Below, piece by piece: positions 3,172 to 41,441 of a stretch of 64,000 nt of DNA. Under the pieces are notes generated by a model, which was not told the origin of the DNA, searched no databases, and saw nothing but the letters and a program-made list of their open reading frames with translations. Numbering within the stretch: the first letter of the stretch is position 1; each line of letters opens with the position of its first letter. A program made the translations under genes and the position numbers. The stretch spans positions 124,093-188,092 of the forward strand of contig JBNLCO010000010.1 in assembly GCA_050303855.1 (NCBI GenBank), written 5' to 3'. This DNA is from Candidatus Pacearchaeota archaeon. GTDB taxonomy: Archaea; Nanobdellota; Nanobdellia; Pacearchaeales; GW2011-AR1.

Positions 3172-4128
3172 ATGCCAACAAGAAAATCACCAAGAAAAGG
3201 AAGCTTGCAATTTTGGCCTCGAAAGAGGATCAACAAATTTTTGCCTAGAGTTAACTGGAGTGCTATTAATTCTGATAAGAAATTGAAGGGATTTGTTGGA
3301 TATAAGGCAGGGATGGTTTCTGTTGAAGTTAAGGATTTAACTGCCAATTCAATGACTAAAGATAAGAAGATAATTATTCCGGCTACAGTTATTGAATGTC
3401 CTAAGATGAAAATCTTTTCGGTTAGATTCTACAAAAATGGGGTCGTTAAGAAGGATGTTTTAGCTGAACAATTCGACAAGGAACTTAAGAAAAAGGTTAA
3501 GGTTCCAAAAGAGAATAAATTGAAGCTTGATTCTGTAAAAAGTGAGAATTATGATGATGTTTCTGTTATTGCTTATACTGTTGTTAAGAAAACAGGATTG
3601 AAGAAGAAACCAGATATGGCTGAAATTGGTATTTCAGGTTCAAGTGTTGATGAGAAATTAAGTTTTGTTAAAGAGAATTTGAATAAAGAGTTGAGTGTTA
3701 CGGATTTATTCGCTTCAGGAGATTTAGTTGACTTTAGAGGTTTAACTAAAGGTAAAGGTCTTGTTGGTCCTGTAAAGAGATTTGGAATTACATTAAAAGC
3801 TCATAAGTCGGAGAAAGGTGTTAGAAGACCAGGTAATGTTGGTCCGTGGCATCCTGCAAGAGTTACTTTTAGAATCCCTATGGCAGGTCAATTAGGGAAG
3901 TTTACAAGAGTACATTATAATCAAAAAGTTATTGTAACTGGAAATGATGAAGAAGTTAAGAAATCTTTGAAAGCGATAAAGAACTATGGAAATGTTAACA
4001 TGGATTATGTTATTGTTTCTGGTTCAGTTCAAGGTCCAGCAAAGAGACAAGTGTTTATTACTGCTCCTTTGAGAAAAAGTAAAATGTCTGCAAAGAAGAA
4101 TTATGAATTCGGGAGAATATTGAGATAA
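3172..4128 (+). CDS. rpl3: 50S ribosomal protein uL3
   Basis: N-terminus MPTRKSPRKGSLQFWPRKR and the ...GKGLVGPVKRFG...GPWHPARV motifs; first gene of the S10-like cluster. Confidence 0.95.
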   Translation: MPTRKSPRKGSLQFWPRKRINKFLPRVNWSAINSDKKLKGFVGYKAGMVSVEVKDLTANSMTKDKKIIIPATVIECPKMKIFSVRFYKNGVVKKDVLAEQFDKELKKKVKVPKENKLKLDSVKSENYDDVSVIAYTVVKKTGLKKKPDMAEIGISGSSVDEKLSFVKENLNKELSVTDLFASGDLVDFRGLTKGKGLVGPVKRFGITLKAHKSEKGVRRPGNVGPWHPARVTFRIPMAGQLGKFTRVHYNQKVIVTGNDEEVKKSLKAIKNYGNVNMDYVIVSGSVQGPAKRQVFITAPLRKSKMSAKKNYEFGRILR

Positions 4129-4129
4129 A

Positions 4130-4375
4130 ATGGATATTGGAGAATCAATGGCGAAGAGAAAAATGATTGAAGAATTTAAGAAGTTAGAAATTGTAGCAGA
4201 AGCATTTTCTGAGGTTAAGGGGAATGTTGCTAAAGACAAAGATCTTGGGATGAGGATTGATGAAACAACAGAATTTCATTATAATATTAAAACAAATTAT
4301 GAAGAAGCAAAGGGAAAATTCGTTGGAGAAGATGGAATGCAATATGCTTTTGAAATAAGGAGATATAACGATTAA
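4130..4375 (+). CDS. ORFan A (81 aa) inserted between uL3 and uL4; acidic, no family recognised
   Basis: TAA-A-ATG junctions on both sides, identical to genuine r-protein junctions. By my count 18 D/E versus 14 K/R, so it is not r-protein-like. Confidence 0.6.
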   Translation: MDIGESMAKRKMIEEFKKLEIVAEAFSEVKGNVAKDKDLGMRIDETTEFHYNIKTNYEEAKGKFVGEDGMQYAFEIRRYND

Positions 4376-4376
4376 A

Positions 4377-5216
4377 ATGAAAACTAAAACATACGATTTA
4401 ACAGGGAAAGAAAAAGCAGAAATTGCATTACCCAAAGAATTTAGTTCTAAGGTAAGAGAAGATATTGTTTCTAAAGTTCTTGAAGCTGCAAAGAAACATC
4501 AACCTTACTCTCCAAGTCCTGTTGCAGGAAAACAACATTCTGCCAAAGGAAAGATTGTACATAGAAGACATGTTTGGAGAAGTGGTTATGGTAGAGGAGC
4601 ATCAAGAGTACCAAGAAAAATATTCTCACAGAAAGGTTCAAGATTTAATTGGGAAGCTGCAGAAGTTCCATTCGCAAGAGGCGGTATGAGAGCTCACCCT
4701 CCAAAGATAGAACACTTCTTAAAAGAACTTAAGATCAATAAGAAAGAATTAAAGATTGCTTTTGTATCTGCATTGAGTGCAACAGCTTCTGAAAAATATG
4801 TTGTTGATAAATATGCTACAGTAAATAAATTGAATAAAAAAGTGCCATTCATCTTAACTCTTGGAAATACTGAAAACTTGAAAGTTAAAGATTTACTTAA
4901 TGGTTTGAAAGGTATGCTTGGAGAAGAACTTTACAATATTGCAATAAAGAAAAAATCAATTAGGGCTGGAAAAGGAACAATGAGAGGTAGAAAATACAAA
5001 TCAAATGCAGGTATGCTTTTAGTTGTTGGAAAAGATGAAATTGGAAAAGTAAAAACTAAAATGTTTGAAGTTGTTTCGGCTGGAGAACTTGGAGTTACAG
5101 ATCTTGCCCGAGGAGGATTAGGAAGATTAACTGTTTATACTGAAAATTCTGTTAAAGAATTAGAAAATAAGTTTAATGGTAAAACTGAAAAGAAAGTGGA
5201 GGAAAAGAAAAAATGA
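4377..5216 (+). CDS. rpl4: 50S ribosomal protein uL4
   Basis: Contains ...HQPYSPSPVAGKQHSAKGKIVHRRHVWRSGYGRGASRVPRK...; position in the operon. Confidence 0.95.
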   Translation: MKTKTYDLTGKEKAEIALPKEFSSKVREDIVSKVLEAAKKHQPYSPSPVAGKQHSAKGKIVHRRHVWRSGYGRGASRVPRKIFSQKGSRFNWEAAEVPFARGGMRAHPPKIEHFLKELKINKKELKIAFVSALSATASEKYVVDKYATVNKLNKKVPFILTLGNTENLKVKDLLNGLKGMLGEELYNIAIKKKSIRAGKGTMRGRKYKSNAGMLLVVGKDEIGKVKTKMFEVVSAGELGVTDLARGGLGRLTVYTENSVKELENKFNGKTEKKVEEKKK

Positions 5217-5545
5217 ATAGTGTAGAAATTAAAGTTGTTGAAAATTGGGAAAAACCTGAAGTTTTCAGGACTTTAAAAGAAAAAGATTTGATAAGTGATA
5301 AAGAAGTTGTATTTGAATCCTTCAAGTTGAGAGGAGAAGGAACTTCTTTAATTCATACGCTCCAGAGAGTCAAGCCAGGAATTGTGAAGGTTAAAAAATA
5401 TTATTTTGAATCAGGTAAATTGAGCAGTAACGCAGGAGTGGATTATTGGACCAATTCACTGGATATAGGATATAATCCAGAAGCAAAATCAGATCAAATA
5501 CTTTATGATGCAGAAGATAAATTCCTAAGAGAGGCAGGATTATGA
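5213..5545 (+). CDS. ORFan B (110 aa) inserted between uL4 and uL23; no family recognised
   Basis: ATGA start/stop overlaps at both ends (5213-5216 and 5542-5545). GGAGG lies 10 nt upstream of its ATG (5198-5202). Confidence 0.6.
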   Translation: MNSVEIKVVENWEKPEVFRTLKEKDLISDKEVVFESFKLRGEGTSLIHTLQRVKPGIVKVKKYYFESGKLSSNAGVDYWTNSLDIGYNPEAKSDQILYDAEDKFLREAGL

Positions 5546-5778
5546 GACCAATAGCAACTGAAAAAGCAGTAATGAAAATTGAAGCAGAGAATGTAATGAC
5601 CTTTGAATTTGATAAAAGAATGAATAAAGAGGACATTAAGAAAGAAATTGAAGAGCTTTTAGATGTTAAAGTTGATTCGGTTAAAACGCAAATAAGAAAG
5701 AACAAGAAAATTGTTTACGCTAAATTAAATAAGAAGAACCTTGCAATTGATCTTGCAACTAAATTAGGAATGATGTAA
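5542..5778 (+). CDS. rpl23: 50S ribosomal protein uL23
   Basis: 78 aa, MRPIATEKAVMKIEAENVMTFEFDKRMNK...; operon position. Confidence 0.9.
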   Translation: MRPIATEKAVMKIEAENVMTFEFDKRMNKEDIKKEIEELLDVKVDSVKTQIRKNKKIVYAKLNKKNLAIDLATKLGMM

Positions 5779-5779
5779 A

Positions 5780-6478
5780 ATGGGAAAGAGAATAATACAA
5801 CAGGCACGGGGAAAGGGAAGTTCAACTTATAGAGTTAAGAGAAAAGCTTTCAGTCACAAAATCCAATATCCAAGAGGATTAACTGGAGAAGGAAGAATTG
5901 TAAAGTTATTCTTAACTGGTGGACATAGTGCTCCGCTTGCAAAGATAAACTGGTCTGGAGAGAGTTTTTATGTTCCTGCATTCAAAGGAATGGTTCAAGG
6001 AGAGAAGATTAATTTTGATTCAAAAGAAATTGTTAAAGGAAGTATCCTTGAGTTAGGAGATATTCCACTTAAGACAAAGATATTTTGCATTGAATCGAGA
6101 CCTGGAGATGGTGGAAAGTTCATAAAGACTGCAGGAAGTTCTGCAGAAGTTGTTAGAAGGGTCGGCAAAAATGTTCATGTATTAATGCCGTCGAAAAAAG
6201 AAAAACCTTTTAACCCGAAATGTCGGGCTATTATTGGTGAAGCTGCTGGTCATGGTAGAACAGACAAACCAATAATGAAAGCTGGAAAGCAACATCATAT
6301 TAAGAAAGCAAAAAGTAAATTATGGCCAAGAACAGGTGCATTGAAAGTTAATGCTATCGATCATCCTTTCGGTTCAGGTAGAGGAAAGAACCCTAAGAGC
6401 AAGATTGCAAAGAGAAATTCAGCTCCTGGTCAAAAGGTTGGTTTATTGAGACCAAGAAGGACAGGTAAGAGAAAGTAA
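5780..6478 (+). CDS. rpl2: 50S ribosomal protein uL2
   Basis: Contains MGKRIIQQARGKGSSTYR...AIDHPFGSGRGKN... Confidence 0.95.
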   Translation: MGKRIIQQARGKGSSTYRVKRKAFSHKIQYPRGLTGEGRIVKLFLTGGHSAPLAKINWSGESFYVPAFKGMVQGEKINFDSKEIVKGSILELGDIPLKTKIFCIESRPGDGGKFIKTAGSSAEVVRRVGKNVHVLMPSKKEKPFNPKCRAIIGEAAGHGRTDKPIMKAGKQHHIKKAKSKLWPRTGALKVNAIDHPFGSGRGKNPKSKIAKRNSAPGQKVGLLRPRRTGKRK

Positions 6479-6479
6479 A

Positions 6480-6848
6480 ATGGAAATGAAATTACAAACA
6501 ACTGGAATAAAGTATGAAAATCTAGTTGGAAAAGGATTAGAACTTTTTTGTGAAAGTGCGGTCAATAAAGATGAAAATGTTGTGGGAAGGTATCTTCCTG
6601 GAATTGAGGGACAAGAGATAACCTATTTAGGAAATTTAGGACATAGATTCGGAGAAAGAGATTTATTTGGATTTGAAGAAGACAATAAATTGACTGTCCT
6701 TGTTGGAAACATAAAAGACATTACTGGAAACAGGGCAACGTTAAGCACCTTTGTTCAAAGCATTTCCCCAAATTTTTACGGAACTGAAAATTTGAGTGAT
6801 GAGATTTTAAAACAATGCAAAGAGATTTTGTCAGGAGTAAAAGAATAA
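6480..6848 (+). CDS. ORFan C (122 aa) inserted between uL2 and uS19; no family recognised
   Basis: TAA-A-ATG junctions on both sides. Gly/Glu-rich, not basic. Confidence 0.6.
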   Translation: MEMKLQTTGIKYENLVGKGLELFCESAVNKDENVVGRYLPGIEGQEITYLGNLGHRFGERDLFGFEEDNKLTVLVGNIKDITGNRATLSTFVQSISPNFYGTENLSDEILKQCKEILSGVKE

Positions 6849-6849
6849 A

Positions 6850-7254
6850 ATGGTAGATATAGGATCACAAAAGAAACAATTCAAGTATCGAGGCAAAGAT
6901 ATTGAAGAGTTGAAGGCTTTAGATACTCGAGAGGTTGCAAAATACCTTGATTCGAGAGCTAGAAGAACTGTACTTAGAAACTTCCAAGAAATTGAGGATT
7001 TCCTTCAGAGAGCTAAGAGAAAACAATCAAAGAATAAGAAGATTAAAACTCATAAGAGAAAATTGATAGTTGTTCCTCAAATGGTTGGAATGCAAATCCA
7101 AGTACATAACGGAAGAATGTTTATTCCAATTGAGGTTGTCCCGGAGATGATCGGACATTATTTGGGAGAATTTTCATTAACAAGGGCAAAAGCTTCACAT
7201 AGTAAATCAGGAGTTGGTGCTACTAAGGGTAGTAGAGCCAAATCCAAGAAGTAA
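6850..7254 (+). CDS. rps19: 30S ribosomal protein uS19
   Basis: Contains ...IVVPQMVGMQIQVHNGRMFIPIEVVPEMIGHYLGEFSLTR... Confidence 0.95.
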   Translation: MVDIGSQKKQFKYRGKDIEELKALDTREVAKYLDSRARRTVLRNFQEIEDFLQRAKRKQSKNKKIKTHKRKLIVVPQMVGMQIQVHNGRMFIPIEVVPEMIGHYLGEFSLTRAKASHSKSGVGATKGSRAKSKK

Positions 7255-7259
7255 GTAAA

Positions 7260-7871
7260 ATGACAGAAAAACAATACGCTCCAAGTGCTAAAGAAAAGAA
7301 GATGTCTACAAAGAAAGTAGAATCCCCAGTAGCAGAAGCTCCTAAAAAGGTTGAAGCTAAAGAAAATAAAACTGAAGAGAAAAAAGTTGAAGAAAAGAAA
7401 ACAGAAGTAAAGCAACCTGTTAAAGTTACAAAAGTTAAGAAAGATCTTGCTGTAGTTAATGCAAACAATTCAAAAGTTTCATTAAAATATGCAATAAGCA
7501 TTTGTAAATTCATTAAAGGCAAAAGAATTGGCGATGCGATAAGAGATTTAGAAGCAGTTGTTGTTAAGAAAAAGGCAGTTCCAATGACTGGAGAGTATGC
7601 GCATAAGAAAAGTGTAAAGAAATATGCATCAGGTGCTGGAAAATACCCTGTTAATGCTGCAAAGGCTTTCCTTGTGTTGGTTAAAAGCCTTTTAGGAAAT
7701 GCTAATGCAAATGACATAAATGAACCTGTAATCACTGAATGTATTGCAAACAAAGCCCCCAAACCAATGGGAAGATTTGGAAGATGGGAAAGAAAAAGAT
7801 GCCACATCAAATTGGTTGCAAGAGAAATTAAAGTTAAAGAGAATAAAGCTAAGACAGAGGAAAAGAAATAA
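7260..7871 (+). CDS. rpl22: 50S ribosomal protein uL22 with an N-terminal Lys/Glu-rich extension of about 60 aa
   Basis: The core ...VSLKYAISICKFIKGKRIGDAIRDLEAVV... is preceded by MTEKQYAPSAKEKKMSTKKVESPVAEAPKKVEAKENKTEEKKVEEKKTEVKQ. Confidence 0.9.
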   Translation: MTEKQYAPSAKEKKMSTKKVESPVAEAPKKVEAKENKTEEKKVEEKKTEVKQPVKVTKVKKDLAVVNANNSKVSLKYAISICKFIKGKRIGDAIRDLEAVVVKKKAVPMTGEYAHKKSVKKYASGAGKYPVNAAKAFLVLVKSLLGNANANDINEPVITECIANKAPKPMGRFGRWERKRCHIKLVAREIKVKENKAKTEEKK

Positions 7872-7872
7872 A

Positions 7873-8565
7873 ATGGAAGAAAAACAAACTGTAAAATTCA
7901 AGAAGGAAGACTTTGCTATAAAGGAAATCATAAGAAAGACAATTGGAAAGGGAAAGATGAGCAGAGTTAGAATTGAATATACTCCGGTTGGAGAAAAAGT
8001 AATAATCTCCACAGATAAACCAGGTTTGGTTATTGGAAGGGGTGGAGAGAGTTTGAACGAATTAAGTGATATGCTTAGAAAGAATTTCAAATTCCAAAAT
8101 TTACATATTGAAATTGAAGAAATAAAAGAACCTGAATTTGACTCTCAAACTATTGCAGATGAGATTGCTTTAGGTTTAGAGAGAGCTGGACCATTAAAGT
8201 TCAAGGTTATTGCTTACAGAACACTTGAGAAAGTGATGAAAGCGGGAGCATTAGGTTGTGAAATAAGATTAAGCGGAAAACTTCCAAGTTCAAGAGCTAA
8301 GACATGGAGATTCGCTCAAGGATATTTAAAGAAAACAGGAGACTCTGCAAAGGTTGTAAGTCGTGCTCAAGCAAGAGCTGAGACTAAGCCGGGAACTGTG
8401 GGAGTTAAGGTTAGTATATTATCACCGCATGCAATATTGAAAGATAGAATAAAGATCAACGAAGATTTGATAAACCAGTTGAAAGAAAACGCTGAAAAAT
8501 TAAATGAAGTTCCAGAGAAGAAAACTAAGAAAAAAGCTAAGACTGCTAAGGAGAGTAAAAAATGA
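7873..8565 (+). CDS. rps3: 30S ribosomal protein uS3
   Basis: The track ORF starts at 7744, inside uL22. The in-frame ATG at 7873 (TAA-A-ATG junction) gives MEEKQTVKFKKEDFAIKEIIRK... with the KH-domain motif LVIGRGGESL. Confidence 0.9.
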   Translation: MEEKQTVKFKKEDFAIKEIIRKTIGKGKMSRVRIEYTPVGEKVIISTDKPGLVIGRGGESLNELSDMLRKNFKFQNLHIEIEEIKEPEFDSQTIADEIALGLERAGPLKFKVIAYRTLEKVMKAGALGCEIRLSGKLPSSRAKTWRFAQGYLKKTGDSAKVVSRAQARAETKPGTVGVKVSILSPHAILKDRIKINEDLINQLKENAEKLNEVPEKKTKKKAKTAKESKK

Positions 8566-8756
8566 AACACTCAGAAGTAAAGAAATTAAGTAAGACAGAC
8601 AGAGATAAGAAATTAAAAGAACTAAAGTTGGAATTAGTTAAAGAAAACGTATCAAAGCAAGGCGGAAATAAATCTGCTAAAATAAGAAAAATAATCGCAA
8701 GAATACACACACTCAACAACATGGAAAATAAACCCAAGGAGTTGAATAACAAATAA
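8562..8756 (+). CDS. rpl29: 50S ribosomal protein uL29
   Basis: 64 aa, MKHSEVKKLSKTDRDKKLKELKLELVK...; ATGA overlap with uS3. Confidence 0.9.
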   Translation: MKHSEVKKLSKTDRDKKLKELKLELVKENVSKQGGNKSAKIRKIIARIHTLNNMENKPKELNNK

Positions 8757-8760
8757 AACA

Positions 8761-9060: not shown

Positions 9061-9078
9061 AGAGGTGAAAAATAAAAA

Positions 9079-9423
9079 ATGGAAAGTAAGAAAATGAAAA
9101 AAACAGAAGTAAAAGAATCAAAAATAGTTGGAACTGAAAAGAGTATAAACCCAAGAGGAAAGATCTTCGAGGGAGTTGTAACAGCAAAGTTCCACAAGAG
9201 AATAACAATCGAATTCGAAAGAATGGTTTATATTAGAAAGTATGAAAGATATGCAAAGTCGAAGACAAAAATCCATGCAAGACTCCCAGTTTCAATGGAA
9301 AACGAAGTTAATGTTGGAGATTTGATAAGAGTTCAAGAGTGTAGACCTTTAAGTAAGATAATCCATTTCATCGTGGTTAAGAAATTAAAAGATGCTTCAG
9401 AAATTTTAGGAGGAAAGAAATAA
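9079..9423 (+). CDS. rps17: 30S ribosomal protein uS17
   Basis: Contains ...RGKIFEGVVTAKFHKRITIEFERMVYIRKYERYAKSKTKIHA...VGDLIRVQECRPLSK... Confidence 0.92.
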   Translation: MESKKMKKTEVKESKIVGTEKSINPRGKIFEGVVTAKFHKRITIEFERMVYIRKYERYAKSKTKIHARLPVSMENEVNVGDLIRVQECRPLSKIIHFIVVKKLKDASEILGGKK

Positions 9424-9424
9424 G

Positions 9425-9826: not shown

Positions 9827-9827
9827 A

Positions 9828-10972: not shown

Positions 10973-10973
10973 A

Positions 10974-11492: not shown

Positions 11493-11493
11493 A

Positions 11494-11760: not shown

Positions 11761-11761
11761 A

Positions 11762-11992: not shown

Positions 11993-12006
11993 ATTGCAAA
12001 AGTAAA

Positions 12007-12387
12007 ATGAGTCACGATGTTGTAGCAGATGGATTGAATATGTTGAGAAATGCAGCTGTAGCTGGAAAAGAAACCGTGAAGATAAATAGAATCTCAAATG
12101 TTTTGATAGAAGTTCTTAAAATAATGAAGCAAGATGGAGCAATAAAGAAATATAAAATAGATTCTGAAGATAAATCTCTTACAGTTACAATAGACAAATT
12201 AGATGAATGTAAGGCAATAAAACCAAGATTCACTTGTGATGTTTCGCAAATAGAGAACTATAGAAGAAGATATCTTCCAGCAAGAGATGTTGGAACAATG
12301 ATACTTTCTACAAACAAAGGGTTAATGACTCACAAAGAGGCAACAGAAGAAAATATTGGAGGATGCCTAATTGCATATTTCTATTAA
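12007..12387 (+). CDS. rps8: 30S ribosomal protein uS8
   Basis: MSHDVVADGLNMLRNAAVAGKETV...GGCLIAYFY. Confidence 0.93.
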   Translation: MSHDVVADGLNMLRNAAVAGKETVKINRISNVLIEVLKIMKQDGAIKKYKIDSEDKSLTVTIDKLDECKAIKPRFTCDVSQIENYRRRYLPARDVGTMILSTNKGLMTHKEATEENIGGCLIAYFY

Positions 12388-12388
12388 A

Positions 12389-12931
12389 ATGAAAAAACCT
12401 TTATCAAAAATAATTGAAATTCCTGAAGGAGTGGAAGTTGCTCTAGATGGAAGAGATGTTAAGGTAAAAGGCCCAGAAGGAGAGATAACTAAAGATTTTG
12501 ATTTTGGGACTTTAGATATTGTTATCAAAGATGGAAAGATAGAATTAAGCCATAAAAGTGCAACAAAGACTGAAAAGAGAACAATGAATACTTTTGCAGC
12601 GCATATACTAAACATGATTAAAGGTGTTCAAGAGAAATTCGAATATACGCTTAAGGTTGCTTCAAGCCACTTCCCTATGACTGTGAAGGTAGAAGGAAAC
12701 ATTGCAACAATAAAGAATTATTACGGAGAAAAAACTGATAGAAAAACAAAAATTCCGAAAGGAGTTGAGGTAGAAGTTAACAAAGATTCAATTGTTGTTA
12801 AGTCTGTTGATAAAGAACTTGCAGGTCAGGCTGCAGCAAATTTCGAGAACGCTACAAAAGTTAGAAATAGGGATAGAAGAATTTTCCAAGATGGAATTTA
12901 CATAACTAAAAAACACGATAAAGCTATTTAA
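12389..12931 (+). CDS. rpl6: 50S ribosomal protein uL6
   Basis: The track start at 12371 is a TTG inside uS8. The ATG at 12389 (TAA-A-ATG) gives MKKPLSKIIEIPEGVEVALDGRDVKVKGPEGE... Confidence 0.92.
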   Translation: MKKPLSKIIEIPEGVEVALDGRDVKVKGPEGEITKDFDFGTLDIVIKDGKIELSHKSATKTEKRTMNTFAAHILNMIKGVQEKFEYTLKVASSHFPMTVKVEGNIATIKNYYGEKTDRKTKIPKGVEVEVNKDSIVVKSVDKELAGQAAANFENATKVRNRDRRIFQDGIYITKKHDKAI

Positions 12932-12936
12932 TTAAA

Positions 12937-13341
12937 ATGACCGAAAAGAAAAAACCAAATTTCAAGAGAAAGGACTCACACAAGTATTCTAAGCTTGGAA
13001 AGTCAAGAAAGAATAAACAGAAGTGGAAGAAACCTACTGGAAGAGATAACAAAATGCGTGAGAAGAAGAAGGGTCATCCAGCGGTTGTTTCAATAGGGTA
13101 TAAGACAAACACTTCAATAAGAGGAAAAGTGGAAGAAAAGAAACCAGTTTATGTTTACAACATCAAGGATTTGGAAAATGTAAACACAAATGAAATTGTA
13201 ATTGTTGGAAATGTTGGGATGAAGAAGAAAGTAGAAATTACAAAGGTTGCAAAAGAAAAGAAAATCAAAATAAAAAACATTAATGAGAAAAAATTAATGA
13301 AGAAAGTTAAGAAAAAAACAACTAAGGAGAGTAAAAAATGA
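12937..13341 (+). CDS. rpl32e: 50S ribosomal protein eL32
   Basis: Contains ...KQKWKKPTGRDNKMREKKKGHPAVVSIGYK... Confidence 0.9.
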   Translation: MTEKKKPNFKRKDSHKYSKLGKSRKNKQKWKKPTGRDNKMREKKKGHPAVVSIGYKTNTSIRGKVEEKKPVYVYNIKDLENVNTNEIVIVGNVGMKKKVEITKVAKEKKIKIKNINEKKLMKKVKKKTTKESKK

Positions 13342-13805
13342 ATTTGAGATCAAAGAAGGAGCTAGCTGCAAGAACATTCAAGGTTGGTAAAGAAAGAATT
13401 ACTTTCATTAAAGAAAGATTGGATGAAGTAAAAGAAGCTATAACTAAACAAGATATGATTGGTTTGGAGAAAGACGGAGCAATAAAGGTAAAGGAAGTAA
13501 GTGGGAGAAAGAAGGTACATACTGTAAGAAATAGAAGCCCAGGGAACGTAAGAAAGAAGGTTAACACTAGAAAAAGGGACTATGTTATCATGACTAGAAA
13601 GCTTAGACAACACGTTAGACACCTTAAATCCAATGGAGAATTAAGCCCTGAAGAAGTTAAAGAAATAAGAAAAAGAATAAGAAACAAAGGATTTAAGAGT
13701 AAAGCACATATGAAAGAACAGATAGCAACAAAGAATTATTCCTCTGTTCAAGTATCAGGAAAATCAAAAAATAAAAAAACTAAATCAAGTAAAAAGAAAA
13801 AATGA
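13338..13805 (+). CDS. rpl19e: 50S ribosomal protein eL19
   Basis: MNLRSKKELAARTFKVGKERITF...; ATGA overlaps at both ends. Confidence 0.92.
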   Translation: MNLRSKKELAARTFKVGKERITFIKERLDEVKEAITKQDMIGLEKDGAIKVKEVSGRKKVHTVRNRSPGNVRKKVNTRKRDYVIMTRKLRQHVRHLKSNGELSPEEVKEIRKRIRNKGFKSKAHMKEQIATKNYSSVQVSGKSKNKKTKSSKKKK

Positions 13806-14290
13806 AAGTACAAAAACGAAGAAGAAGAGAAAATAAGACAGACTATCTTAAGAGAATGAAGCTTCTTAAGAGCGCAAAGCCAAGAGTAGTATTCAGAAAA
13901 ACAAACAAATATGTTATTGCGCAATATGTTGTTAGTGATGAAGCTAAAGATAAAGTTGTATTTGGAGTAAGTTCAAAAGATTTGTTAAAGAAAGGTTGGG
14001 ATGAAAATGCTAAAGGATCTTTGAAGTCAATACCTGCAACATATTTAACAGGGTATTATGCTGGTAAAAAAATCTTGAAAGAAGGGCTTGAAACTCCAAT
14101 AGTGGATTTAGGTATGATAAAAACTTTACATAAAACAAAGGTTTTTGCTTTTATCAAAGGTTTAATTGATTCTGGAGTAGAAATTGGATCAAAAGAAGAA
14201 GCATTCCCTGAAGAAGAAAGAATAAATGGAGAAAGTTTAAAGAACAAGGTAGACATTCAAAAAATTAAATCAAGTTTAGATAAAGAATAA
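13802..14290 (+). CDS. rpl18: 50S ribosomal protein uL18
   Basis: MKVQKRRRRENKTDYLKRMKLLKSAKPRVVFRKTNKYVIAQYV... Confidence 0.92.
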   Translation: MKVQKRRRRENKTDYLKRMKLLKSAKPRVVFRKTNKYVIAQYVVSDEAKDKVVFGVSSKDLLKKGWDENAKGSLKSIPATYLTGYYAGKKILKEGLETPIVDLGMIKTLHKTKVFAFIKGLIDSGVEIGSKEEAFPEEERINGESLKNKVDIQKIKSSLDKE

Positions 14291-14291
14291 A

Positions 14292-15158
14292 ATGACCGAA
14301 AAAGAACTTAATAAAAAAACTGCAGAAGCATACAAAGATAATTTGAATACTGACGCGGAAGAAGCTACAGAGAAAATGATAAAGGATGAAGAAAATGATG
14401 AATATGCAGAAGTTCCTGAAGAAGTTTTAGATGAGAAAGAACTTAAGGAATTAAAAGAGATGGAAAAGGACACTAAGAAGCCTGGAAGGGACAGAAGAGA
14501 TAGCGCTCCTGCAGAAGCATGGTCTCCTATTACAAAGTTAGGGGTTGCTGTAAAAGAAGGAACAATCAAAGATATTGATGAAATTATTGAGAAAAAAATG
14601 AAGATCCTTGAACCAGAAATAGTTGATAAATTAATACCTGTTGAATCAGATTTAATTTCTATAGGGCAATCTAAAGGTAAGTTTGGTGGTGGAAAAAGGA
14701 GAGCATGGAGACAGACTCAAAGAAAAAAGAAGGAAGGAAATGTTGCTACATTCTCAGCTATGGCCGTTATTGGCGATGGTAATGGTCATGTGGGTATTGG
14801 AACAGGAAAGTCTACAGAGACTCTTCCAGCAAGAGATAAAGCTACAAGAAAAGCTAAAATTAATGTAATAAAAATTATTAGGGGGGATGGAAGTTTCGAT
14901 TCTGTTGGAGGAGGAAATACAAGTATTCCATTCAAAGTTTCAGGTCAAGCAGGAAGTGTAAGAATTACTTTAATGCCTGCTGCTCCAGGTACAGGTCTTG
15001 TTGCAGGGGATGAAATGAAGAAGATACTTAGAATTGCAGGAATAAAAGATATATACTCAAAAACAGAAGGAAAATTGTCTACAAAGTTTAACCTTGCAAA
15101 AGCAACAATAGATGCACTTAAGAAAACAAATCCTTTGTATAAGAGGGCAAAACAATAA
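14292..15158 (+). CDS. rps5: 30S ribosomal protein uS5 with an acidic N-terminal extension of about 75 aa
   Basis: Core ...AWSPITKLGVAVKEGTI...FSAMAVIGDGNGHVGIGTGKS..., preceded by MTEKELNKKTAEAYKDNLNTDAEEATEKMIKDEENDEYAEVPEEVLDEKELKELKEMEKD. Confidence 0.92.
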   Translation: MTEKELNKKTAEAYKDNLNTDAEEATEKMIKDEENDEYAEVPEEVLDEKELKELKEMEKDTKKPGRDRRDSAPAEAWSPITKLGVAVKEGTIKDIDEIIEKKMKILEPEIVDKLIPVESDLISIGQSKGKFGGGKRRAWRQTQRKKKEGNVATFSAMAVIGDGNGHVGIGTGKSTETLPARDKATRKAKINVIKIIRGDGSFDSVGGGNTSIPFKVSGQAGSVRITLMPAAPGTGLVAGDEMKKILRIAGIKDIYSKTEGKLSTKFNLAKATIDALKKTNPLYKRAKQ

Positions 15159-15159
15159 A

Positions 15160-15522
15160 ATGAAAATCGCAGTAATAAGGATAAAAGGAATGGTTGGACT
15201 AAAAACAGACATAGCTGAGACTTTGGATAGATTAAGATTGAGAAGAAAATATGCGTGTGTGGTTATAGAAGATACACCAGAGAATTTAGGAATGATAAAG
15301 AAGGTTGGAGACTTTGTTGCACATGGCCCTATTGATGAAAAAACCTACAAAGAATTAGTTGATAAGAGAGGAAAGAAAGATTCTGAAGGCAAACTTAAAC
15401 CATTCTTTAGATTGCACCCTGCTAGAGGCGGAATGGAAACTAAAAAACACTTTGGAGTGGGTAAAGGAGTTTTAGGAAATAATAAAGATAAAATAAATGA
15501 ATTAATAGGGAGGATGTTGTGA
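15160..15522 (+). CDS. rpl30: 50S ribosomal protein uL30
   Basis: The track ORF starts at 15112, inside uS5. The ATG at 15160 (TAA-A-ATG) gives MKIAVIRIKGMVGLKTDIAETLDRLRLRRKYACVVI... Confidence 0.9.
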   Translation: MKIAVIRIKGMVGLKTDIAETLDRLRLRRKYACVVIEDTPENLGMIKKVGDFVAHGPIDEKTYKELVDKRGKKDSEGKLKPFFRLHPARGGMETKKHFGVGKGVLGNNKDKINELIGRML

Positions 15523-15523
15523 A

Positions 15524-15742
15524 GTGTCCGAGTACTATAAGGGCAAAAAAATTAATGGCGAGCTTATTTGCGGAGTGAGTGATCAGGGAAACTACAATCC
15601 TATAATTACAACCGTTTCAAAGTCAGAGGACGAGAATTTAAGGAATACTTATGTTCTCAAAGAAGACATCCTTGAGTTTGTCAAGGCCGATCCGCTAACA
15701 GACAAACAAGCTAGAAATTACATAAACAAATCAAAAAGATAA
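15524..15742 (+). CDS. ORFan E (72 aa, GTG start) inserted between uL30 and uL15; no family recognised
   Basis: TGA-A-GTG junction upstream and TAA-A-ATG downstream. Sequence MSEYYKGKKINGELICGVSDQGNYNPIITTVSK... Confidence 0.5.
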   Translation: MSEYYKGKKINGELICGVSDQGNYNPIITTVSKSEDENLRNTYVLKEDILEFVKADPLTDKQARNYINKSKR

Positions 15743-15743
15743 A

Positions 15744-16235
15744 ATGGCGCAAAGAACACATAAAAGAAAAAAATCAACAAGATACCATGGAAGGAATATG
15801 GGTACTTCTAGCAATGGTTCTAGAAAAACACATAGAAGTTCAGGTAATAAAGGTGGAACGGGATTATCTGGTACTGGAAAGAGAGCAGACCATAAGAAAA
15901 CATTGATAAACAAATTATACGGAAATAATTACTTTGGGAAACAAGGAATTACCTCTAAGAAGACTCAGAGAGATAAGAGATTAAGAATAACTCTTTCTCA
16001 AATAATGAATAACCTTGAAAGCTATGGAAAAAAGACTGCAAAAGGTTGGGAAATTGATTTAAGCAAGTACAAAATACTTGGTAAAATTGAAGTTAAGGAA
16101 AAATTAATAATAAAGGCTCTTGAAGCATCAAAAGGAGCAATTGAATCGGTTAAGAAATCTGGTGGAGAGATAGTTTTGCCTGTTCCTAAAAAGAAGGTTG
16201 AAGTCAAAAGTTCCGACGATGGCAAAGAAGAATAG
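15744..16235 (+). CDS. rpl15: 50S ribosomal protein uL15
   Basis: MAQRTHKRKKSTRYHGRNMGTSSNGSRKTHRSSGNKGGTGLSGTGKRADHKK... Confidence 0.92.
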   Translation: MAQRTHKRKKSTRYHGRNMGTSSNGSRKTHRSSGNKGGTGLSGTGKRADHKKTLINKLYGNNYFGKQGITSKKTQRDKRLRITLSQIMNNLESYGKKTAKGWEIDLSKYKILGKIEVKEKLIIKALEASKGAIESVKKSGGEIVLPVPKKKVEVKSSDDGKEE

Positions 16236-16244
16236 TTTTAAAAA
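16236..16244 (+). promoter_or_regulatory. TATA-like box (TTTTAAAAA) about 27 nt upstream of the secY ATG
   Basis: It lies in the only sizeable spacer (31 nt) at the end of the r-protein string. The geometry matches the other leaderless promoters in the window. Confidence 0.5.
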
Positions 16245-16266
16245 CACTCTTTCTTAATTCTATACT

Positions 16267-17661
16267 ATGGCAAATCTTACGAAGATATTCTCTTTAATTC
16301 CTGAAGTTAGGAATCCAGATGAAAAGAAGCTAGCTTTTAATGTGAAGCTTAAGTGGACACTTGTTGTATTGATAGGATTTTTTATTTTAGCAAACATACC
16401 TTTGTTTGGTTTGACGAATAATGCTTTGGAGAGATTCCAATATTTAGCTATAATTTTAGGGACAGATTTTGGTTCAATAATTTCTTTAGGTATTGGTCCG
16501 ATCGTTATGGCTTCGATTATATTGCAGTTGTTAACGGGAGCGGGTATTTTAAACATAAATACAAACACTGCAGAAGGAAAGAAGTTTTTCCAAGGAGTTC
16601 AGAAATTAATGGTGTTCTTCTTTATATTATTTGAAGCCACAGTTTATGTATTAATGAAAGGTCTTGAAGCTGCCCCTGGACTTGCAGGAATAGTTATCTT
16701 CCAACTTATAATTGGAGGTATTGCGATTTACTATATGAATGAACTTTGTGAAAAATGGGGATTCGGTTCGGGAGTTAGTTTGTTCATTGCAGCGGGAGTA
16801 TCTTGGAATCTATTTACTGGTGCATTCCAGTTCATAAATCAGCAAGGTAGAAACTGTCTTGCAGATTTCTCGGGAACTGCATGTTCAGGAAAGATTTTCG
16901 TATTAATACAATCAATTGTGAATAAGTACCCTGTTGAATTTATGTCCGCACTTGGGGCTATTGTAGCAACGGTTGCTATATTTTTGTTGGTAGTTTGGGC
17001 CCAATCGCTTAAGGTAGAAATTCCTTTGAGTTTTGGAAGAATTAGAGGATATGGTGTAAAGTGGCCTTTGAGTTTCTTCTACGCTTCAGTTATCCCTGTT
17101 ATTTTAACTGCTGCTTTAGTTGCAAACATACAACTATTTGGAGGGCTTTTGGAGAATTGGAGAGGTCATGCAACATTCCTAGGTCATTTCGTAAATGGTC
17201 AGGCAGTGTCCGGTTTAGGGTTCTGGCTTGGGCATACGAATTTGCTTGAATTGGCAATAAGAGGAGGATTCTTACCTAGGTTCTTAGTCCAAGGATTGAC
17301 GCACATAATATTCTATACTGGACTTGCAATGTTGTTCTCGATATTTTGGGTTAAAAGTTCTGGAATGGACTCAAAAGCTCAAGCTCAAAAGATATCTTCA
17401 TCAGGATTACAAGTTGCAGGTTTCAGACAAGATAACAGAGTTTTGGAAAGCATATTAGATAGATATATAATGCCTTTAACAGTTATGGGAGGAGCGGCAA
17501 TAGGATTGCTAGCTGCTTTAACAGACTTGTTAGGTGCTATGGTTTCAGGAACAGCGATACTTTTGGTTATCATGATAATGTTCCAATTCTATCAGAGTAT
17601 TGCACAACAACACATGACAGATATGAATCCTGCTATGAGGAAGTTTATGGGAAATGCATAA
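16267..17661 (+). CDS. secY: preprotein translocase subunit SecY
   Basis: 464 aa, 10-TM-like profile, ...LGIGPIVMASIILQLL...; canonical position after uL15. Confidence 0.95.
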   Translation: MANLTKIFSLIPEVRNPDEKKLAFNVKLKWTLVVLIGFFILANIPLFGLTNNALERFQYLAIILGTDFGSIISLGIGPIVMASIILQLLTGAGILNINTNTAEGKKFFQGVQKLMVFFFILFEATVYVLMKGLEAAPGLAGIVIFQLIIGGIAIYYMNELCEKWGFGSGVSLFIAAGVSWNLFTGAFQFINQQGRNCLADFSGTACSGKIFVLIQSIVNKYPVEFMSALGAIVATVAIFLLVVWAQSLKVEIPLSFGRIRGYGVKWPLSFFYASVIPVILTAALVANIQLFGGLLENWRGHATFLGHFVNGQAVSGLGFWLGHTNLLELAIRGGFLPRFLVQGLTHIIFYTGLAMLFSIFWVKSSGMDSKAQAQKISSSGLQVAGFRQDNRVLESILDRYIMPLTVMGGAAIGLLAALTDLLGAMVSGTAILLVIMIMFQFYQSIAQQHMTDMNPAMRKFMGNA

Positions 17662-17662
17662 G

Positions 17663-18376
17663 ATGACAGAAGAAGAAAATACAAAAAAAGAGGAAGTGGA
17701 CGATACTGTTTCTGAAGAAGTTTTGAAGGTTGAAGAGAAAACTCCCGAGGAAGATAAAAAAACTGAAGAAGTTAAAGAGGAAATTGTTCAAGAGAAAAAA
17801 ACTGATCCAAGGAATTCAAGCAACCTTATGAAAGATAAGAATGCTAAAGAAGGAAGTTTTACACCATTAGTTTTGATTATGATTGCTTCACTAGTTATTG
17901 CATTTTATTGGGATAAAATATCATTCATAAAAGAAGCGATACACTTTATTTTTAATCCAACCGCTGGAGCATTATTGGATTGGAATTTAAACATTGGTAT
18001 GTTGATTATAGTTTTTATTATTTCTATTATTACAACACTAGTTCAGAAATATGCAACGGACCAAGATAAGTTGAAAGAATTGAAGAAAGAGCAGAAAGAA
18101 ATACAAAAGCAGATGAAAGAGTTCAAGAATCATCCTGAGAAAATCATGGAGTTGCAGAAAAAACAATTTGCAATGATGCCAAAGCAGATGAAGTTGTCTA
18201 TGAGAGGTATTGCTTATACAGGTATACCGTTTATATTGTTCTTTAGATGGTTTAATGATTATTTCTTAGCTGCAGGAAATCCAAAATTCATTCTTGGATT
18301 GAGTTGGTTCTGGTTCTATTTGATATTTGCAATGGTATTCAGTTCTATCCTTAGGAAGAAAATGGATGTTGTTTAG
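17663..18376 (+). CDS. DUF106 / EMC3-TMCO1-like archaeal YidC/Oxa1-type insertase homolog with an acidic N-terminal extension
   Basis: The ATG at 17663 (TAA-G-ATG) is preferred over the track start at 17654. A TM segment is followed by a coiled-coil hairpin (QDKLKELKKEQKEIQKQMKEFKNHPEKIMELQKKQFAMMPKQMK) and then more TM segments. This gene neighbours secY in many archaea. Confidence 0.75.
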   Translation: MTEEENTKKEEVDDTVSEEVLKVEEKTPEEDKKTEEVKEEIVQEKKTDPRNSSNLMKDKNAKEGSFTPLVLIMIASLVIAFYWDKISFIKEAIHFIFNPTAGALLDWNLNIGMLIIVFIISIITTLVQKYATDQDKLKELKKEQKEIQKQMKEFKNHPEKIMELQKKQFAMMPKQMKLSMRGIAYTGIPFILFFRWFNDYFLAAGNPKFILGLSWFWFYLIFAMVFSSILRKKMDVV

Positions 18377-41440: not shown

Positions 41441-41441
41441 A

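What the first reader, a model, noticed from the sequence alone, without database searches (positions are those of the whole stretch)
3172..18376. Stereotyped stop-start grammar: TAA-A-ATG at 14 junctions and ATGA overlaps at 6
Reading every junction from uL3 to the DUF106 gene gives the following counts.
- Fourteen junctions are exactly TAA-A-ATG: uL3>A, A>uL4, uL23>uL2, uL2>C, C>uS19, uL22>uS3, uL14>uL24, eS4>uL5, uL5>D, D>uS14, uS8>uL6, uL18>uS5, uS5>uL30 and E>uL15.
- Three are one-letter variants: TGA-A-GTG, and TAA-G-ATG at uS17>uL14 and SecY>DUF106.
- Six are ATGA overlaps: uL4>B, B>uL23, uS3>uL29, uL24>eS4, eL32>eL19 and eL19>uL18.

The TAA-A-ATG form recurs at uS13>uS4, at uS4>uS11 and in the glycan island (41438-41444). 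Two ATGA junctions share an identical 21-mer, CTAAGGAGAGTAAAAAATGAA, at 8546-8566 and 13322-13342. That 21-mer carries a GGAG Shine-Dalgarno-like element. Many TAAAATG junctions have no obvious Shine-Dalgarno element.

This points to termination-reinitiation coupling as the dominant mode for internal genes.
Basis: seen in the sequence. Interest (0 to 1): 0.4.

Follow-up and report, generated by a model that had tools for sequence, protein, structure and literature searches.

The report
Stereotyped stop-start joints, ribosomal operon
In this tiny-genome (DPANN) archaeon almost every gene of the big ribosomal-protein operon is joined to the next by the same 7-letter joint TAAAATG or by an ATGA overlap. 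This is a clade-wide way of chaining translation from gene to gene, known in principle, but here with an unusual preferred spacing.

Summary
Across 29 junctions from uL3 to DUF106 there are 14 TAA-A-ATG, 2 TAA-G-ATG, 1 TGA-A-GTG and 6 ATGA overlaps, plus the identical 21-mer.

It is not chance. TAAAATG occurs 20 times on the operon's sense strand against 5.1±2.3 in shuffles, and 17 of those 20 sit at gene starts.

It is also not peculiar to this window. In 80 related Woese/Pacearchaeota operons (1855 junctions), gap +1 (491, of which 415 are TAAAATG) is as common as ATGA (459). It far exceeds gap 0 (34) and is independent of GC content. This differs from the -4 >> -1 rule reported for 1,695 species.

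The heptamer merges two preferences: an extended stop signal TAA-A and an A-rich start context (A at -3 to -1 in 73-86% of internal starts in every gap class).

The +1 joints are poor in Shine-Dalgarno (SD) motifs (29%). Overlap joints are SD-rich (63-70%). Stand-alone genes look leaderless.

Termination-reinitiation is the best reading, but the evidence is indirect. In relatives, junctions 20-130 nt apart are bridged by mini-ORFs three times more often than chance.

Side finding: the operon carries variable accessory ORFs (A-E here; C has no homologue anywhere searched, B belongs to a tiny family), each with the same joint type on both sides.

The parts
3172..18376 (+). Ribosomal-protein operon (uL3 to uL15, then SecY and DUF106): 30 ORFs and 29 junctions. 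17 have gap +1, 6 have overlap -4, and the remaining 6 have gaps of 4, 5, 5, 14, 18 and 31 nt.
4126..4132 (+). TAAAATG, uL3>A
4373..4379 (+). TAAAATG, A>uL4
5776..5782 (+). TAAAATG, uL23>uL2
6476..6482 (+). TAAAATG, uL2>C
6846..6852 (+). TAAAATG, C>uS19
7869..7875 (+). TAAAATG, uL22>uS3
9824..9830 (+). TAAAATG, uL14>uL24
10970..10976 (+). TAAAATG, eS4>uL5
11490..11496 (+). TAAAATG, uL5>D
11758..11764 (+). TAAAATG, D>uS14. An alternative in-frame ATG lies at 11708.
12385..12391 (+). TAAAATG, uS8>uL6
14288..14294 (+). TAAAATG, uL18>uS5
15156..15162 (+). TAAAATG, uS5>uL30. An alternative in-frame ATG lies at 15112.
15740..15746 (+). TAAAATG, E>uL15
9421..9427 (+). TAAGATG, uS17>uL14. A strong SD (AGGAGG) lies upstream.
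17659..17665 (+). TAAGATG, SecY>DUF106. An alternative ATG lies at 17654.
15520..15526 (+). TGAAGTG, uL30>E. GTG start, with SD GGGAGGA upstream.
5213..5216 (+). ATGA overlap, uL4>B
5542..5545 (+). ATGA overlap, B>uL23
8562..8565 (+). ATGA overlap, uS3>uL29
10322..10325 (+). ATGA overlap, uL24>eS4
13338..13341 (+). ATGA overlap, eL32>eL19
13802..13805 (+). ATGA overlap, eL19>uL18. This is the only ATGA joint without an SD.
8546..8566 (+). 21-mer CTAAGGAGAGTAAAAAATGAA, copy 1. It comprises the SD, the Lys-rich tail of uS3 and the ATGA joint.
13322..13342 (+). 21-mer, copy 2, in the tail of eL32
7256..7262 (+). TAAAATG at the uL22 start. The real uS19 stop is 4 nt earlier (7252-7254). Read in the other frame, the tail would end at this TAA, so this is probably a relic of a +1 joint after a frameshift in the tail.
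   Evidence: reading of the sequence
12003..12009 (+). TAAAATG at the uS8 start. The uS14 stop is at 11990-11992 (gap 14). No SD.
12933..12939 (+). TAAAATG at the eL32 start. The uL6 stop is at 12929-12931 (gap 5).
16237..16244 (+). TTTAAAAA box 30 nt before the SecY ATG (16267). This suggests an internal promoter giving a leaderless SecY mRNA, and explains the one long gap (31 nt).
3094..3143 (+). Operon leader: TATA-like TTTATAAA (3094-3101), conserved CCAGGG (3126-3131) and a conserved upstream AUG in the context CAAAATG (3137-3143). That context is TAAAATG in 26 of 35 relatives.
55849..55855 (+). TAAGATG, DUF655>uS13 (second ribosomal cluster)
56318..56324 (+). TAAAATG, uS13>uS4
56829..56835 (+). 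TAAAATG, uS4>uS11
41438..41444 (+). TAAAATG, NTP-transferase/GHMP-kinase gene > next ORF (41442-42314)
54965..54971 (+). TAAAATG at the start of ORF 54969-55274. Its TAA is a second in-frame stop, 6 nt after the stop of ORF 54707-54961.
31342..31349 (+). TAAAATGA: an ATGA overlap preceded by an out-of-frame TAA
46818..46825 (-). TAAAATGA on the minus strand: an ATGA overlap preceded by an out-of-frame TAA

Best explanation
The operon is read as a chain of translationally coupled cistrons.

Shown:
- The joints are stereotyped, they are a habit of the whole clade, and they fall into two types.
- Type 1 (gap +1, TAAAATG) is the shortest sequence that combines the clade's preferred four-base stop signal TAA-A with its preferred start context A(-3)A(-2)A(-1)AUG. 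+1 is also the tightest spacing geometrically possible for gene pairs in that relative reading frame. These joints mostly lack an SD.
- Type 2 (ATGA, and TAATG in relatives) lies in the other frame class and usually carries a GGAGG-like SD 8-14 nt upstream, inside the upstream gene.

Inferred:
- One polycistronic mRNA starts about 45 nt upstream of uL3.
- A ribosome that releases the upstream protein at TAA-A is not fully recycled. Its small subunit shifts a few nucleotides and restarts on the adjacent AUG.
- The unstructured A-rich context helps at type 1 joints. SD pairing helps at type 2 joints.
- Because stand-alone genes in this genome appear leaderless, reinitiation is the main way for ribosomes to reach SD-less internal genes.
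For: - Geometry and counts in the window.
- Enrichment on the sense strand of the operon: 20 against 5.1±2.3.
- Clade-wide pattern: 1855 junctions in 80 loci. Gap +1 = 491 (415 TAAAATG), -4 = 459, -1 = 174, +2 = 78, 0 = 34.
- The +1 fraction is not correlated with GC (rho -0.11).
- A at -3 to -1 is 0.73-0.86 in all gap classes against a background of 0.42. T is depleted at -3 to -1 and enriched at -4.
- A follows TAA in 66% of cases even when the next gene is at least 5 nt away.
- SD (duplex <= -6 kcal/mol) occurs at 63-70% of -4/-1/0 joints, 29% of +1 joints and 11% of random coding positions.
- The AAA context is commonest at short SD-less gaps: 76% at 9-20 nt against 35% at 21-60 nt.
- 19 of 39 uncoupled window genes have a TATA-like box at a fixed -29 or so from the ATG, against 2.4% of random positions.
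- Outside the operon, tight joints are rare.
- In relatives, 91 of 303 junctions with gaps of 20-130 nt are bridged joint-to-joint by mini-ORFs, against 27.5±3.9 for shuffled spacers.
- Literature: TeRe was shown at a native +1 pair in H. volcanii and is lost by about 22 nt (PMC10666635). SD is helpful but not essential for TeRe in H. volcanii (PMC6728339).
Against: - There is no expression or translation data.
- The 16S 3' tail is not in the window, so the SD scores assume a canonical anti-SD.
- The AAA context is also present at starts that are not next to a stop. TAAAATG is conserved at the first AUG of the leader, and uL3 itself (AGAAAATG, no SD) must be initiated de novo. Context-driven internal initiation could therefore do part or all of the work.
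- Two thirds of the 20-130 nt gaps in relatives are not bridged by mini-ORFs.
- Start codons in relatives were assigned by homology and a first-ATG rule, not by a trained gene finder.
- The genomes are related, so counts are not independent events.
Confidence: 0.6

Rival explanations
1. Each cistron is initiated independently. The A-rich, unstructured context just before the AUG (a Kozak-like signal, as in Bacteroidia) recruits ribosomes de novo. The tight spacing only reflects genome streamlining.
For: - AAA at -3 to -1 occurs in 46-63% of starts in gap classes -4, 3-8 and 9-60.
- uL3, the first cistron, has AGAAAATG, no SD, no adjacent stop and a leader of about 45 nt.
- TAAAATG is conserved at the first AUG of the leader in 26 of 35 relatives.
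- Upstream adenines tune initiation in Flavobacterium (PMC6847099).
Against: - SD motifs are clearly used at overlap joints, unlike in Bacteroidia.
- AAA frequency falls once the gap exceeds 20 nt.
- Mini-ORFs that start exactly at the upstream stop and end exactly at the next start would be pointless if initiation were independent.
- Tight joints are nearly confined to operons.
Confidence: 0.2
2. There is no translational function. The heptamer is a by-product of AT/A-rich composition, preference for TAA stops and selection for a compact genome.
For: - The window is 33% GC with a very purine-rich sense strand.
- TAAAATG is not enriched in the window as a whole: 40 against 33±6.
- The +1 fraction rises weakly with TAA usage (rho 0.34).
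Against: - There is no correlation with GC.
- Compaction alone would favour TAATG (-1) or TAAATG (0), yet +1 outnumbers gap 0 by 14:1 and -1 by about 3:1. The window has no -1 or 0 joints at all.
- The spacer is A in 85% of cases against about 42% expected.
- The A/T pattern at -4 to -1 is position-specific and independent of the stop.
- SD content differs by joint class.
Confidence: 0.12
3. Annotation artefact: A-E are not genes and the starts were chosen to make tidy joints, so the count is inflated.
For: - A-E have no Pfam, PHROG or NCBIfam hit.
- C is unique among 5.8 billion proteins.
- AlphaFold confidence is low.
- Three genes have alternative upstream ATGs.
Against: - All five ORFs (72-122 codons) fill their gaps exactly in DNA where about 9% of codons would be stops.
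- Their codon-position composition is that of real genes: G1 0.36, G2 0.17, G3 0.16.
- B has five homologues at 35-67% identity among 1.84 billion representatives, one of them at the same position in L004.
- 14 of the 23 tight joints do not involve A-E.
- The junction ATG is the first in-frame ATG for 26 of the 30 genes.
- The N-termini of relatives agree.
Confidence: 0.03

Closest known systems
Translational coupling by termination-reinitiation at overlapping or closely spaced gene pairs (Huber et al. 2019, PMC6728339; Huber et al. 2023, PMC10666635)
   Same: - Co-directional genes lie within -8..+6 nt.
- ATGA overlaps carry an SD inside the upstream gene.
- The genes encode subunits of one complex (the ribosome).
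- A native +1 pair was shown to be coupled in an archaeon that is otherwise largely leaderless.
   Different: - In 1,695 species, -4 is by far the commonest spacing, then -1 and -8. Here +1 equals -4 across the clade and dominates the window (17 of 29, with no -1 joints).
- The +1 joint has one fixed sequence and is mostly SD-free.
- No experiment exists for this lineage.
Kozak-like upstream adenines in Bacteroidia (Baez et al. 2019, PMC6847099) and the A-rich -3 to -1 context of eukaryotic start codons (own knowledge)
   Same: There is strong, position-specific enrichment of A just before the AUG, including at -3, at starts that lack an SD.
   Different: - Bacteroidia avoid SD genome-wide and their ribosomes are blind to it. 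Here SD is frequent at overlap joints.
- The signal here is seen at operon-internal starts.
- No functional test has been done.
Four-base stop signals (stop codon plus the following base; own knowledge)
   Same: TAA is followed by A in 66% of cases even when the next gene is at least 5 nt away.
   Different: The preference has not been measured for archaeal aRF1 in this lineage. Here the same A doubles as position -1 of the next start.
Bicistronic design (BCD) elements of synthetic biology: a short leader cistron that contains the SD of the target gene and ends in a stop-start overlap (PMC5995908; review PMC12548453)
   Same: The 16-19-codon mini-ORFs found between ribosomal genes of relatives have exactly this layout. 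They start at the upstream stop, carry GGAGG near their 3' end, and their stop touches or overlaps the next ATG.
   Different: They are natural, repeated at many joints of one operon, and conserved as a family across genomes. They are absent from this window.

Membership tests
Termination-reinitiation (TeRe) coupled gene pairs | Co-directional pair with stop-to-start distance within about -8..+6 nt | tested here: met
   26 of 29 operon junctions are within -4..+5 nt, and 23 are exactly -4 or +1.
Termination-reinitiation (TeRe) coupled gene pairs | Translation of the downstream gene depends on translation of the upstream gene | not testable with these tools
   This needs reporters or ribosome profiling. 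The only indirect support is mini-ORF bridging of longer gaps in relatives.
Termination-reinitiation (TeRe) coupled gene pairs | Both genes lie on one transcript | tested here: inconclusive
   No TATA-like box lies at -29 of internal genes except SecY. No transcript data are available.
Termination-reinitiation (TeRe) coupled gene pairs | SD inside the 3' end of the upstream gene (frequent but not essential) | tested here: met
   5 of 6 ATGA joints and 7 of 17 +1 joints in the window have an SD. In the clade the figures are 70% and 29%. The anti-SD sequence is assumed, not read.
Kozak-like, SD-independent initiation (Bacteroidia type) | Enrichment of A at -3 and neighbouring positions of start codons | tested here: met
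   A is 0.73-0.86 at -3 to -1 in all gap classes.
Kozak-like, SD-independent initiation (Bacteroidia type) | General absence of SD motifs | tested here: not met
   SD is present at 63-70% of overlap joints against 11% of control positions.
Leaderless archaeal mRNAs | TATA box at a fixed distance, so that transcription starts at or next to the AUG | tested here: met
   This applies to stand-alone genes only. 19 of 39 have a box starting at -35..-26 (mode -29), against 2.4% of random positions. It does not apply to internal operon genes or to uL3.
Mobile cassette or MITE-like insertion at the joints (considered only for the accessory ORFs) | Repeated element with duplicated target flanks at independent sites | tested here: inconclusive
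   The pattern is clear in L022: a 57-62-nt repeat at two joints, flanked by 80-nt and 43-nt direct repeats. A mini-ORF family has 35 copies. There is no flank similarity in general, and none for A-E in the window.

The most novel reading that the evidence does not exclude
The stereotyped joint may work as a socket.

New DNA enters the ribosomal operon by duplications that span a joint. The insert therefore borrows the first codons of the downstream gene and the last codons plus stop of the upstream gene, and ends up with the same joint on both sides.

Every insert would then have to stay an open reading frame running from joint to joint, because the downstream ribosomal proteins are reached only by reinitiation. 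Inserts include an ORF with no detectable homologue (C), four unnamed small ORFs such as A, B, D and E here, recruited enzymes, and a mobile 17-19-codon mini-ORF carrying its own SD.

On this reading, the operon of these archaea would be both a nursery and a landing pad for small genes, held together by obligate translational relay.
Probability: 0.35. Interest if true: 0.75.

Novelty: new variant of a known kind. Interest (0 to 1): 0.5.

Why it matters
Translation initiation in DPANN archaea is unstudied because almost none are cultured. The sequence data suggest a three-part system:
- leaderless mRNAs for single genes;
- SD-assisted restart at overlaps;
- an SD-poor, A-context restart at a fixed +1 joint.

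The preferred spacing departs from the -4/-1 rule seen across prokaryotes.

Practical consequences:
- TAAAATG marks true starts in these genomes.
- It flags short real ORFs that gene callers and annotators tend to dismiss.

If the relay reading is right, the variable ORFs and mini-ORFs wedged between the most conserved genes of life are a natural experiment. They would show that coupling is obligatory, and they would offer a visible route by which new small genes arise.

Tried and rejected
- **'Relay ORFs are random sequence kept open only for coupling'.** Rejected as stated. The 149 inserted ORFs in relatives that lack any detectable homologue have normal coding periodicity and amino-acid composition. 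Some inserts are recognisable enzymes.
- **General tandem-duplication signature.** Flanks of inserted ORFs are no more similar than controls. Clear cases are few: L022 and L057.
- **Homology of A-E to same-position inserts in relatives.** None is convincing.
- **Domain libraries for A-E.** Pfam, PHROGs and NCBIfam gave nothing.
- **AlphaFold on C and B from a single sequence.** pLDDT was 40 and 52, which is uninformative. No fold search was run.
- **Closer relatives from metagenomes.** C found nothing. eS4 found only relatives at 57% identity, so dN/dS for A-E was not possible.
- **Source contig look-up for C.** Not on record. Contigs carrying the B homologue P0003 are under 1 kb.
- **Conserved RNA structure.** None was found in the uL3 leader or in the mini-ORF cassette, and there is no Rfam match.
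- **Composition as the cause.** The +1 fraction does not correlate with GC.
- **Sigma-70 and terminator scan.** At chance level and irrelevant for an archaeon.
- **Literature.** No paper was found on junction usage or on ORFs interleaved in ribosomal operons of DPANN.

Full report
**What is there**

The window is 33% GC. From about 4 to 16 kb the plus strand is very purine-rich (GC skew and AT skew both about 0.3).

Positions 3172-18376 hold an archaeal ribosomal-protein operon in the canonical order: uL3, uL4, uL23, uL2, uS19, uL22, uS3, uL29, aIF1/SUI1, uS17, uL14, uL24, eS4, uL5, uS14, uS8, uL6, eL32, eL19, uL18, uS5, uL30, uL15, SecY, and a DUF106/EMC3-like gene. Five extra ORFs sit between these genes:
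- A, 4130-4375
- B, 5213-5545
- C, 6480-6848
- D, 11494-11760
- E, 15524-15742

uL14 is 83-95% identical to MAGs labelled Woesearchaeota, Pacearchaeota or Nanoarchaeota, so the organism is a DPANN archaeon.

**Checking the observation**

Every count is right: 14 TAA-A-ATG, 2 TAA-G-ATG, 1 TGA-A-GTG and 6 ATGA overlaps. The 21-mer occurs exactly twice, at 8546 and 13322.

uS13>uS4 (56318) and uS4>uS11 (56829) are TAAAATG, and the gene identities are confirmed. 41438 is a true stop-A-start joint.

I add four points:
- Three further operon genes (uL22, uS8, eL32) begin with TAAAATG although the functional upstream stop lies 4, 13 and 4 nt before that TAA.
- For uL22 and eL32, the upstream tail read in the other frame would end at the joint TAA. 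These look like former +1 joints displaced by a frameshift in the Lys-rich tail.
- Three starts (uS14, uL30, DUF106) have alternative upstream ATGs. Homologues support the junction starts.
- Nine of the 23 tight joints flank A-E.

**Is it more than chance?**

Across the whole window the heptamer is as common as composition predicts: 40 against 33±6.

On the operon's sense strand it occurs 20 times against 5.1±2.3, with a maximum of 11 in 300 dinucleotide shuffles. 17 of the 20 are at gene starts.

The one-base spacer is A in 15 of 17 cases (p=1e-4) and always a purine (p=4e-4).

**It is a clade habit**

I annotated the same operon in 80 related genomes, assigning orthologues by BLASTP and placing starts by alignment to the window proteins.

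| Gap class | Junctions (of 1855) |
|---|---|
| +1 | 491 |
| -4 | 459 |
| -1 | 174 |
| +2 | 78 |
| 0 | 34 |

Of the +1 joints, 415 are TAAAATG, 38 TAAGATG, 17 TAAT and 15 TAAC. All but three use TAA as the stop.

The +1 fraction per genome ranges from 0.07 to 0.59. It is unrelated to GC (rho -0.11) and weakly related to TAA use (rho 0.34). The window, at 0.59, ties for the highest.

Joint type is partly specific to the gene pair:
- uL3>uL4, uL4>uL23, uS17>uL14, eL32>eL19, eL19>uL18 and uS5>uL30 are mostly -4.
- uL14>uL24, uS14>uS8, uS8>uL6 and uL22>uS3 are mostly +1.

The largest published survey (1,695 species) finds -4 by far the commonest spacing, then -1 and -8, with little phylum effect. 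DPANN are not mentioned in it (PMC10666635). That paper also notes that -2 and -5 overlaps are impossible. It follows that +1 is the tightest non-overlapping spacing available to pairs in that frame class.

**What the heptamer is made of**

At internal starts of every gap class, A is 0.73-0.86 at -3, -2 and -1, against a background of 0.42. T is nearly absent at those positions and is enriched at -4.

AAA precedes the ATG in 46-63% of starts in classes -4, 3-8 and 9-60, against about 7% expected.

Independently, TAA is followed by A in 66% of cases when the next gene is at least 5 nt away. The A frequency falls to 52% and 38% at the next two positions.

TAAAATG is therefore the minimal string that satisfies an extended stop signal (TAA-A) and an A-rich start context at once. 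Gap 0 would put T at -3, and the -1 overlap would put T at -2. That fits their rarity.

**Two kinds of joint**

I scored pairing to an assumed canonical anti-SD, because the 16S gene is not in the window. The fraction with a duplex of -6 kcal/mol or better was as follows:

| Position class | Fraction with SD |
|---|---|
| -4, -1 and 0 joints | 63-70% |
| +1 joints | 29% |
| Random coding positions | 11% |

In the window, 5 of 6 ATGA joints have an SD, against 7 of 17 +1 joints. uL24, uL6, uS5, uL15 and uL5 have none.

The motifs seen (AAGGAG, GGAGG, GGAGGTG) match the canonical tail.

**How other genes start**

Outside the operons, genes are rarely joined tightly.

19 of 39 uncoupled window genes carry a TTTAWAAA-like box starting at -35..-26 from the ATG, with a mode of -29. 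The figure for random positions is 2.4%. This is the spacing expected for leaderless archaeal mRNAs. SecY has such a box, which explains the single long gap in the operon.

uL3 is different. Its TATA-like box lies 78 nt upstream, giving a leader of about 45 nt. It has no SD and its context is AGAAAATG.

**Mechanism**

The best reading is a chain of termination-reinitiation events on one long mRNA. SD pairing would hold the subunit at overlap joints. An A-rich, unstructured four-base step would serve at +1 joints.

Experiments in H. volcanii show three relevant things:
- coupling at a native +1 pair;
- loss of coupling by about 22 nt;
- an SD that helps but is not essential.

The strongest indirect support comes from relatives. 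Of 303 operon junctions with gaps of 20-130 nt, 91 are bridged by one or two mini-ORFs. Each begins at a tight joint with the upstream stop and ends at a tight joint with the downstream ATG. Shuffled spacers give 27.5±3.9.

None of this measures translation. The A context at non-adjacent starts, at uL3, and at a conserved leader AUG (see below) leaves room for context-driven de novo initiation. I put the coupling reading at 0.6.

**Accessory ORFs**

In the window:
- A-E have no family hit.
- C is unique among 5.8 billion proteins.
- B has five distant homologues among 1.84 billion representatives, one at the same position in L004.
- Their codon-position composition is that of real genes.

In relatives:
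- Many plus-strand ORFs fill the gaps between ribosomal genes at variable positions, up to 13 per operon.
- Of about 214 such ORFs, excluding uL29, roughly 180 have no BLASTP match to each other.
- Others are an RNase T-like exonuclease (a 12-member family, always at uL4>uL23), a GNAT acetyltransferase, a MazG-like protein, and a 2-thiouracil desulfurase found at two different joints.

Inserted ORFs carry the same joint class on both sides far more often than expected: 77 of 115 against 50.8±5.3 after controlling for genome. Core genes show no such effect: 250 against 251.6. In the window all five ORFs are concordant: A, C, D and E are +1/+1, and B is -4/-4.

Some cases show how this can arise:
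- In L022 an 80-codon ORF between SUI1 and uS17 ends with the last 16 residues of SUI1 and starts like uS17. It contains a 57-62-nt repeat that is also found in a second insert after uS5. The two sites are flanked by 80-nt and 43-nt direct repeats.
- In L057 an insert before uL6 starts like uL6.

Flank similarity is otherwise at background level. If duplication is the general route, its traces are quickly lost.

**Mini-ORF cassette**

One mini-ORF family has the following properties:
- Its consensus is MKANQ(R/K)FSFI(R/Q)NKxRRYF(K/E). It is about 52 nt long, with GGAGG near its 3' end.
- It has 35 detectable copies, all in the sense orientation, 33 inside operons, in 21 genomes and at nine or more different joints.
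- Its first codons match those of uL14, next to which it is most often found.
- It has no conserved RNA structure, and its length variants differ by 6 nt.
- It is absent from the window.

Its layout is that of the synthetic 'bicistronic design' element (PMC5995908).

Within a genome, different joints share at least 14 identical start-proximal bases six times more often than joints from different genomes. The window's 21-mer pair is one of the eight within-genome pairs that share at least 16 identical bases upstream of the ATG. Convergence on an optimum and copying between joints cannot be told apart.

**Verdict**

The joint is a composite of a stop signal and a start context. It belongs to the clade, and it coexists with an SD-dependent overlap type.

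The mechanism class is known. The preferred spacing, the fixed sequence, the low SD content and the associated insert biology are not described in the literature I could search.

Noticed in passing
window 4130-4375 (A), 5213-5545 (B), 6480-6848 (C), 11494-11760 (D), 15524-15742 (E): Five small, non-basic ORFs (72-122 aa, pI 4.9-8.9) are interleaved between core ribosomal-protein genes.
- None has a Pfam, PHROG or NCBIfam hit.
- C has no homologue among 5.8 billion proteins.
- B has five distant homologues.
- Their codon periodicity is gene-like.
- Each has the same joint type on both sides.
   Followed up: partly
L001-L080, operon region (for example L005 3874-19166, L015, L078, L032, L051): Related genomes carry 0-13 extra plus-strand ORFs wedged between ribosomal genes at variable positions.
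- About 180 of 214 have no detectable similarity to each other.
- Others are RNase T-like, GNAT, MazG and 2-thiouracil desulfurase genes.
- The same family can sit at different joints.
- Up- and downstream joint classes are concordant: 77 of 115 against 50.8 expected.
   Followed up: partly
L022 9309-9632 and 15573-15751: Two new ORFs have been caught forming. A 57-62-nt repeat was inserted at two joints, flanked by 80-nt and 43-nt direct repeats of the target. Each new ORF starts like the downstream gene and ends with the upstream gene's last codons and stop.
   Followed up: partly
L004, L005, L006, L011, L013, L014, L020, L028, L035, L040, L045, L058, L065, L067, L068, L070 (for example L005 uS17>uL14 and uL5>uS14; L070 uS17>uL14 and eL19>uL18): A conserved mini-ORF cassette of about 52 nt encodes MKANQRFSFIxNKxRRYFK and carries an internal GGAGG.
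- It starts at the upstream stop and ends at the next ATG.
- It is present at nine or more different joints.
- There are 35 copies, all in the sense orientation and almost all inside the operon.
- It has no conserved RNA structure.
- It is not present in the window.
   Followed up: partly
window 3094-3247, and the equivalent region upstream of uL3 in 35 loci: The operon leader is conserved in sequence: TATA-like box, then UUCCAGGG, then 7-10 nt later (U/C)AAAAUG, then UCCGC.
- The upstream AUG is in the same alternative frame relative to uL3 in 31 of 35 loci, although the distance varies (22-46 nt, in steps of 3).
- It opens a 24-40-codon ORF (35 codons here, stop at 3246-3248) that overlaps the uL3 start.
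- There is no Rfam match and no conserved secondary structure.
- It may be a regulatory uORF.
   Followed up: partly
window, upstream of for example 18419, 19753, 20650, 26377, 37174, 39168(-), 54707, 57355, 16267: A TTTAWAAA-like box sits at a fixed -29 or so from the ATG in about half of the stand-alone genes. This implies mostly leaderless mRNAs.
   Followed up: partly
window 7260-7460 (uL22 N-terminus), 14292-14700 (uS5 N-terminus), 17663-17830 (DUF106 N-terminus): These proteins have long, low-complexity, Lys/Glu-rich N-terminal extensions: about 65, 130 and 55 residues before the Pfam domains. Many ribosomal proteins also end in Lys-rich tails that supply the A-rich run before the next start. 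The extensions could be former inserted ORFs fused to the core gene.
   Followed up: no
window 7223-7810 (-), 9515-10099 (-), 7692-8090 (-): Long antisense ORFs (130-195 codons) lie inside the operon. They are most likely artefacts of the purine-rich sense strand, whose complement has few stop codons. A length-based gene caller picks them over real genes.
   Followed up: no
window 51444-51531 (-), 53264-53379 (+): An 88-nt tRNA was called by Rfam, but ARAGORN could not read its anticodon, so it may contain an intron. A solitary 5S rRNA gene is present. No 16S or 23S gene is in the window.
   Followed up: no
window 42315-42944: A 630-nt stretch without a called ORF of 60 aa or more lies between two plus-strand genes of the sugar-nucleotide region.
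   Followed up: no
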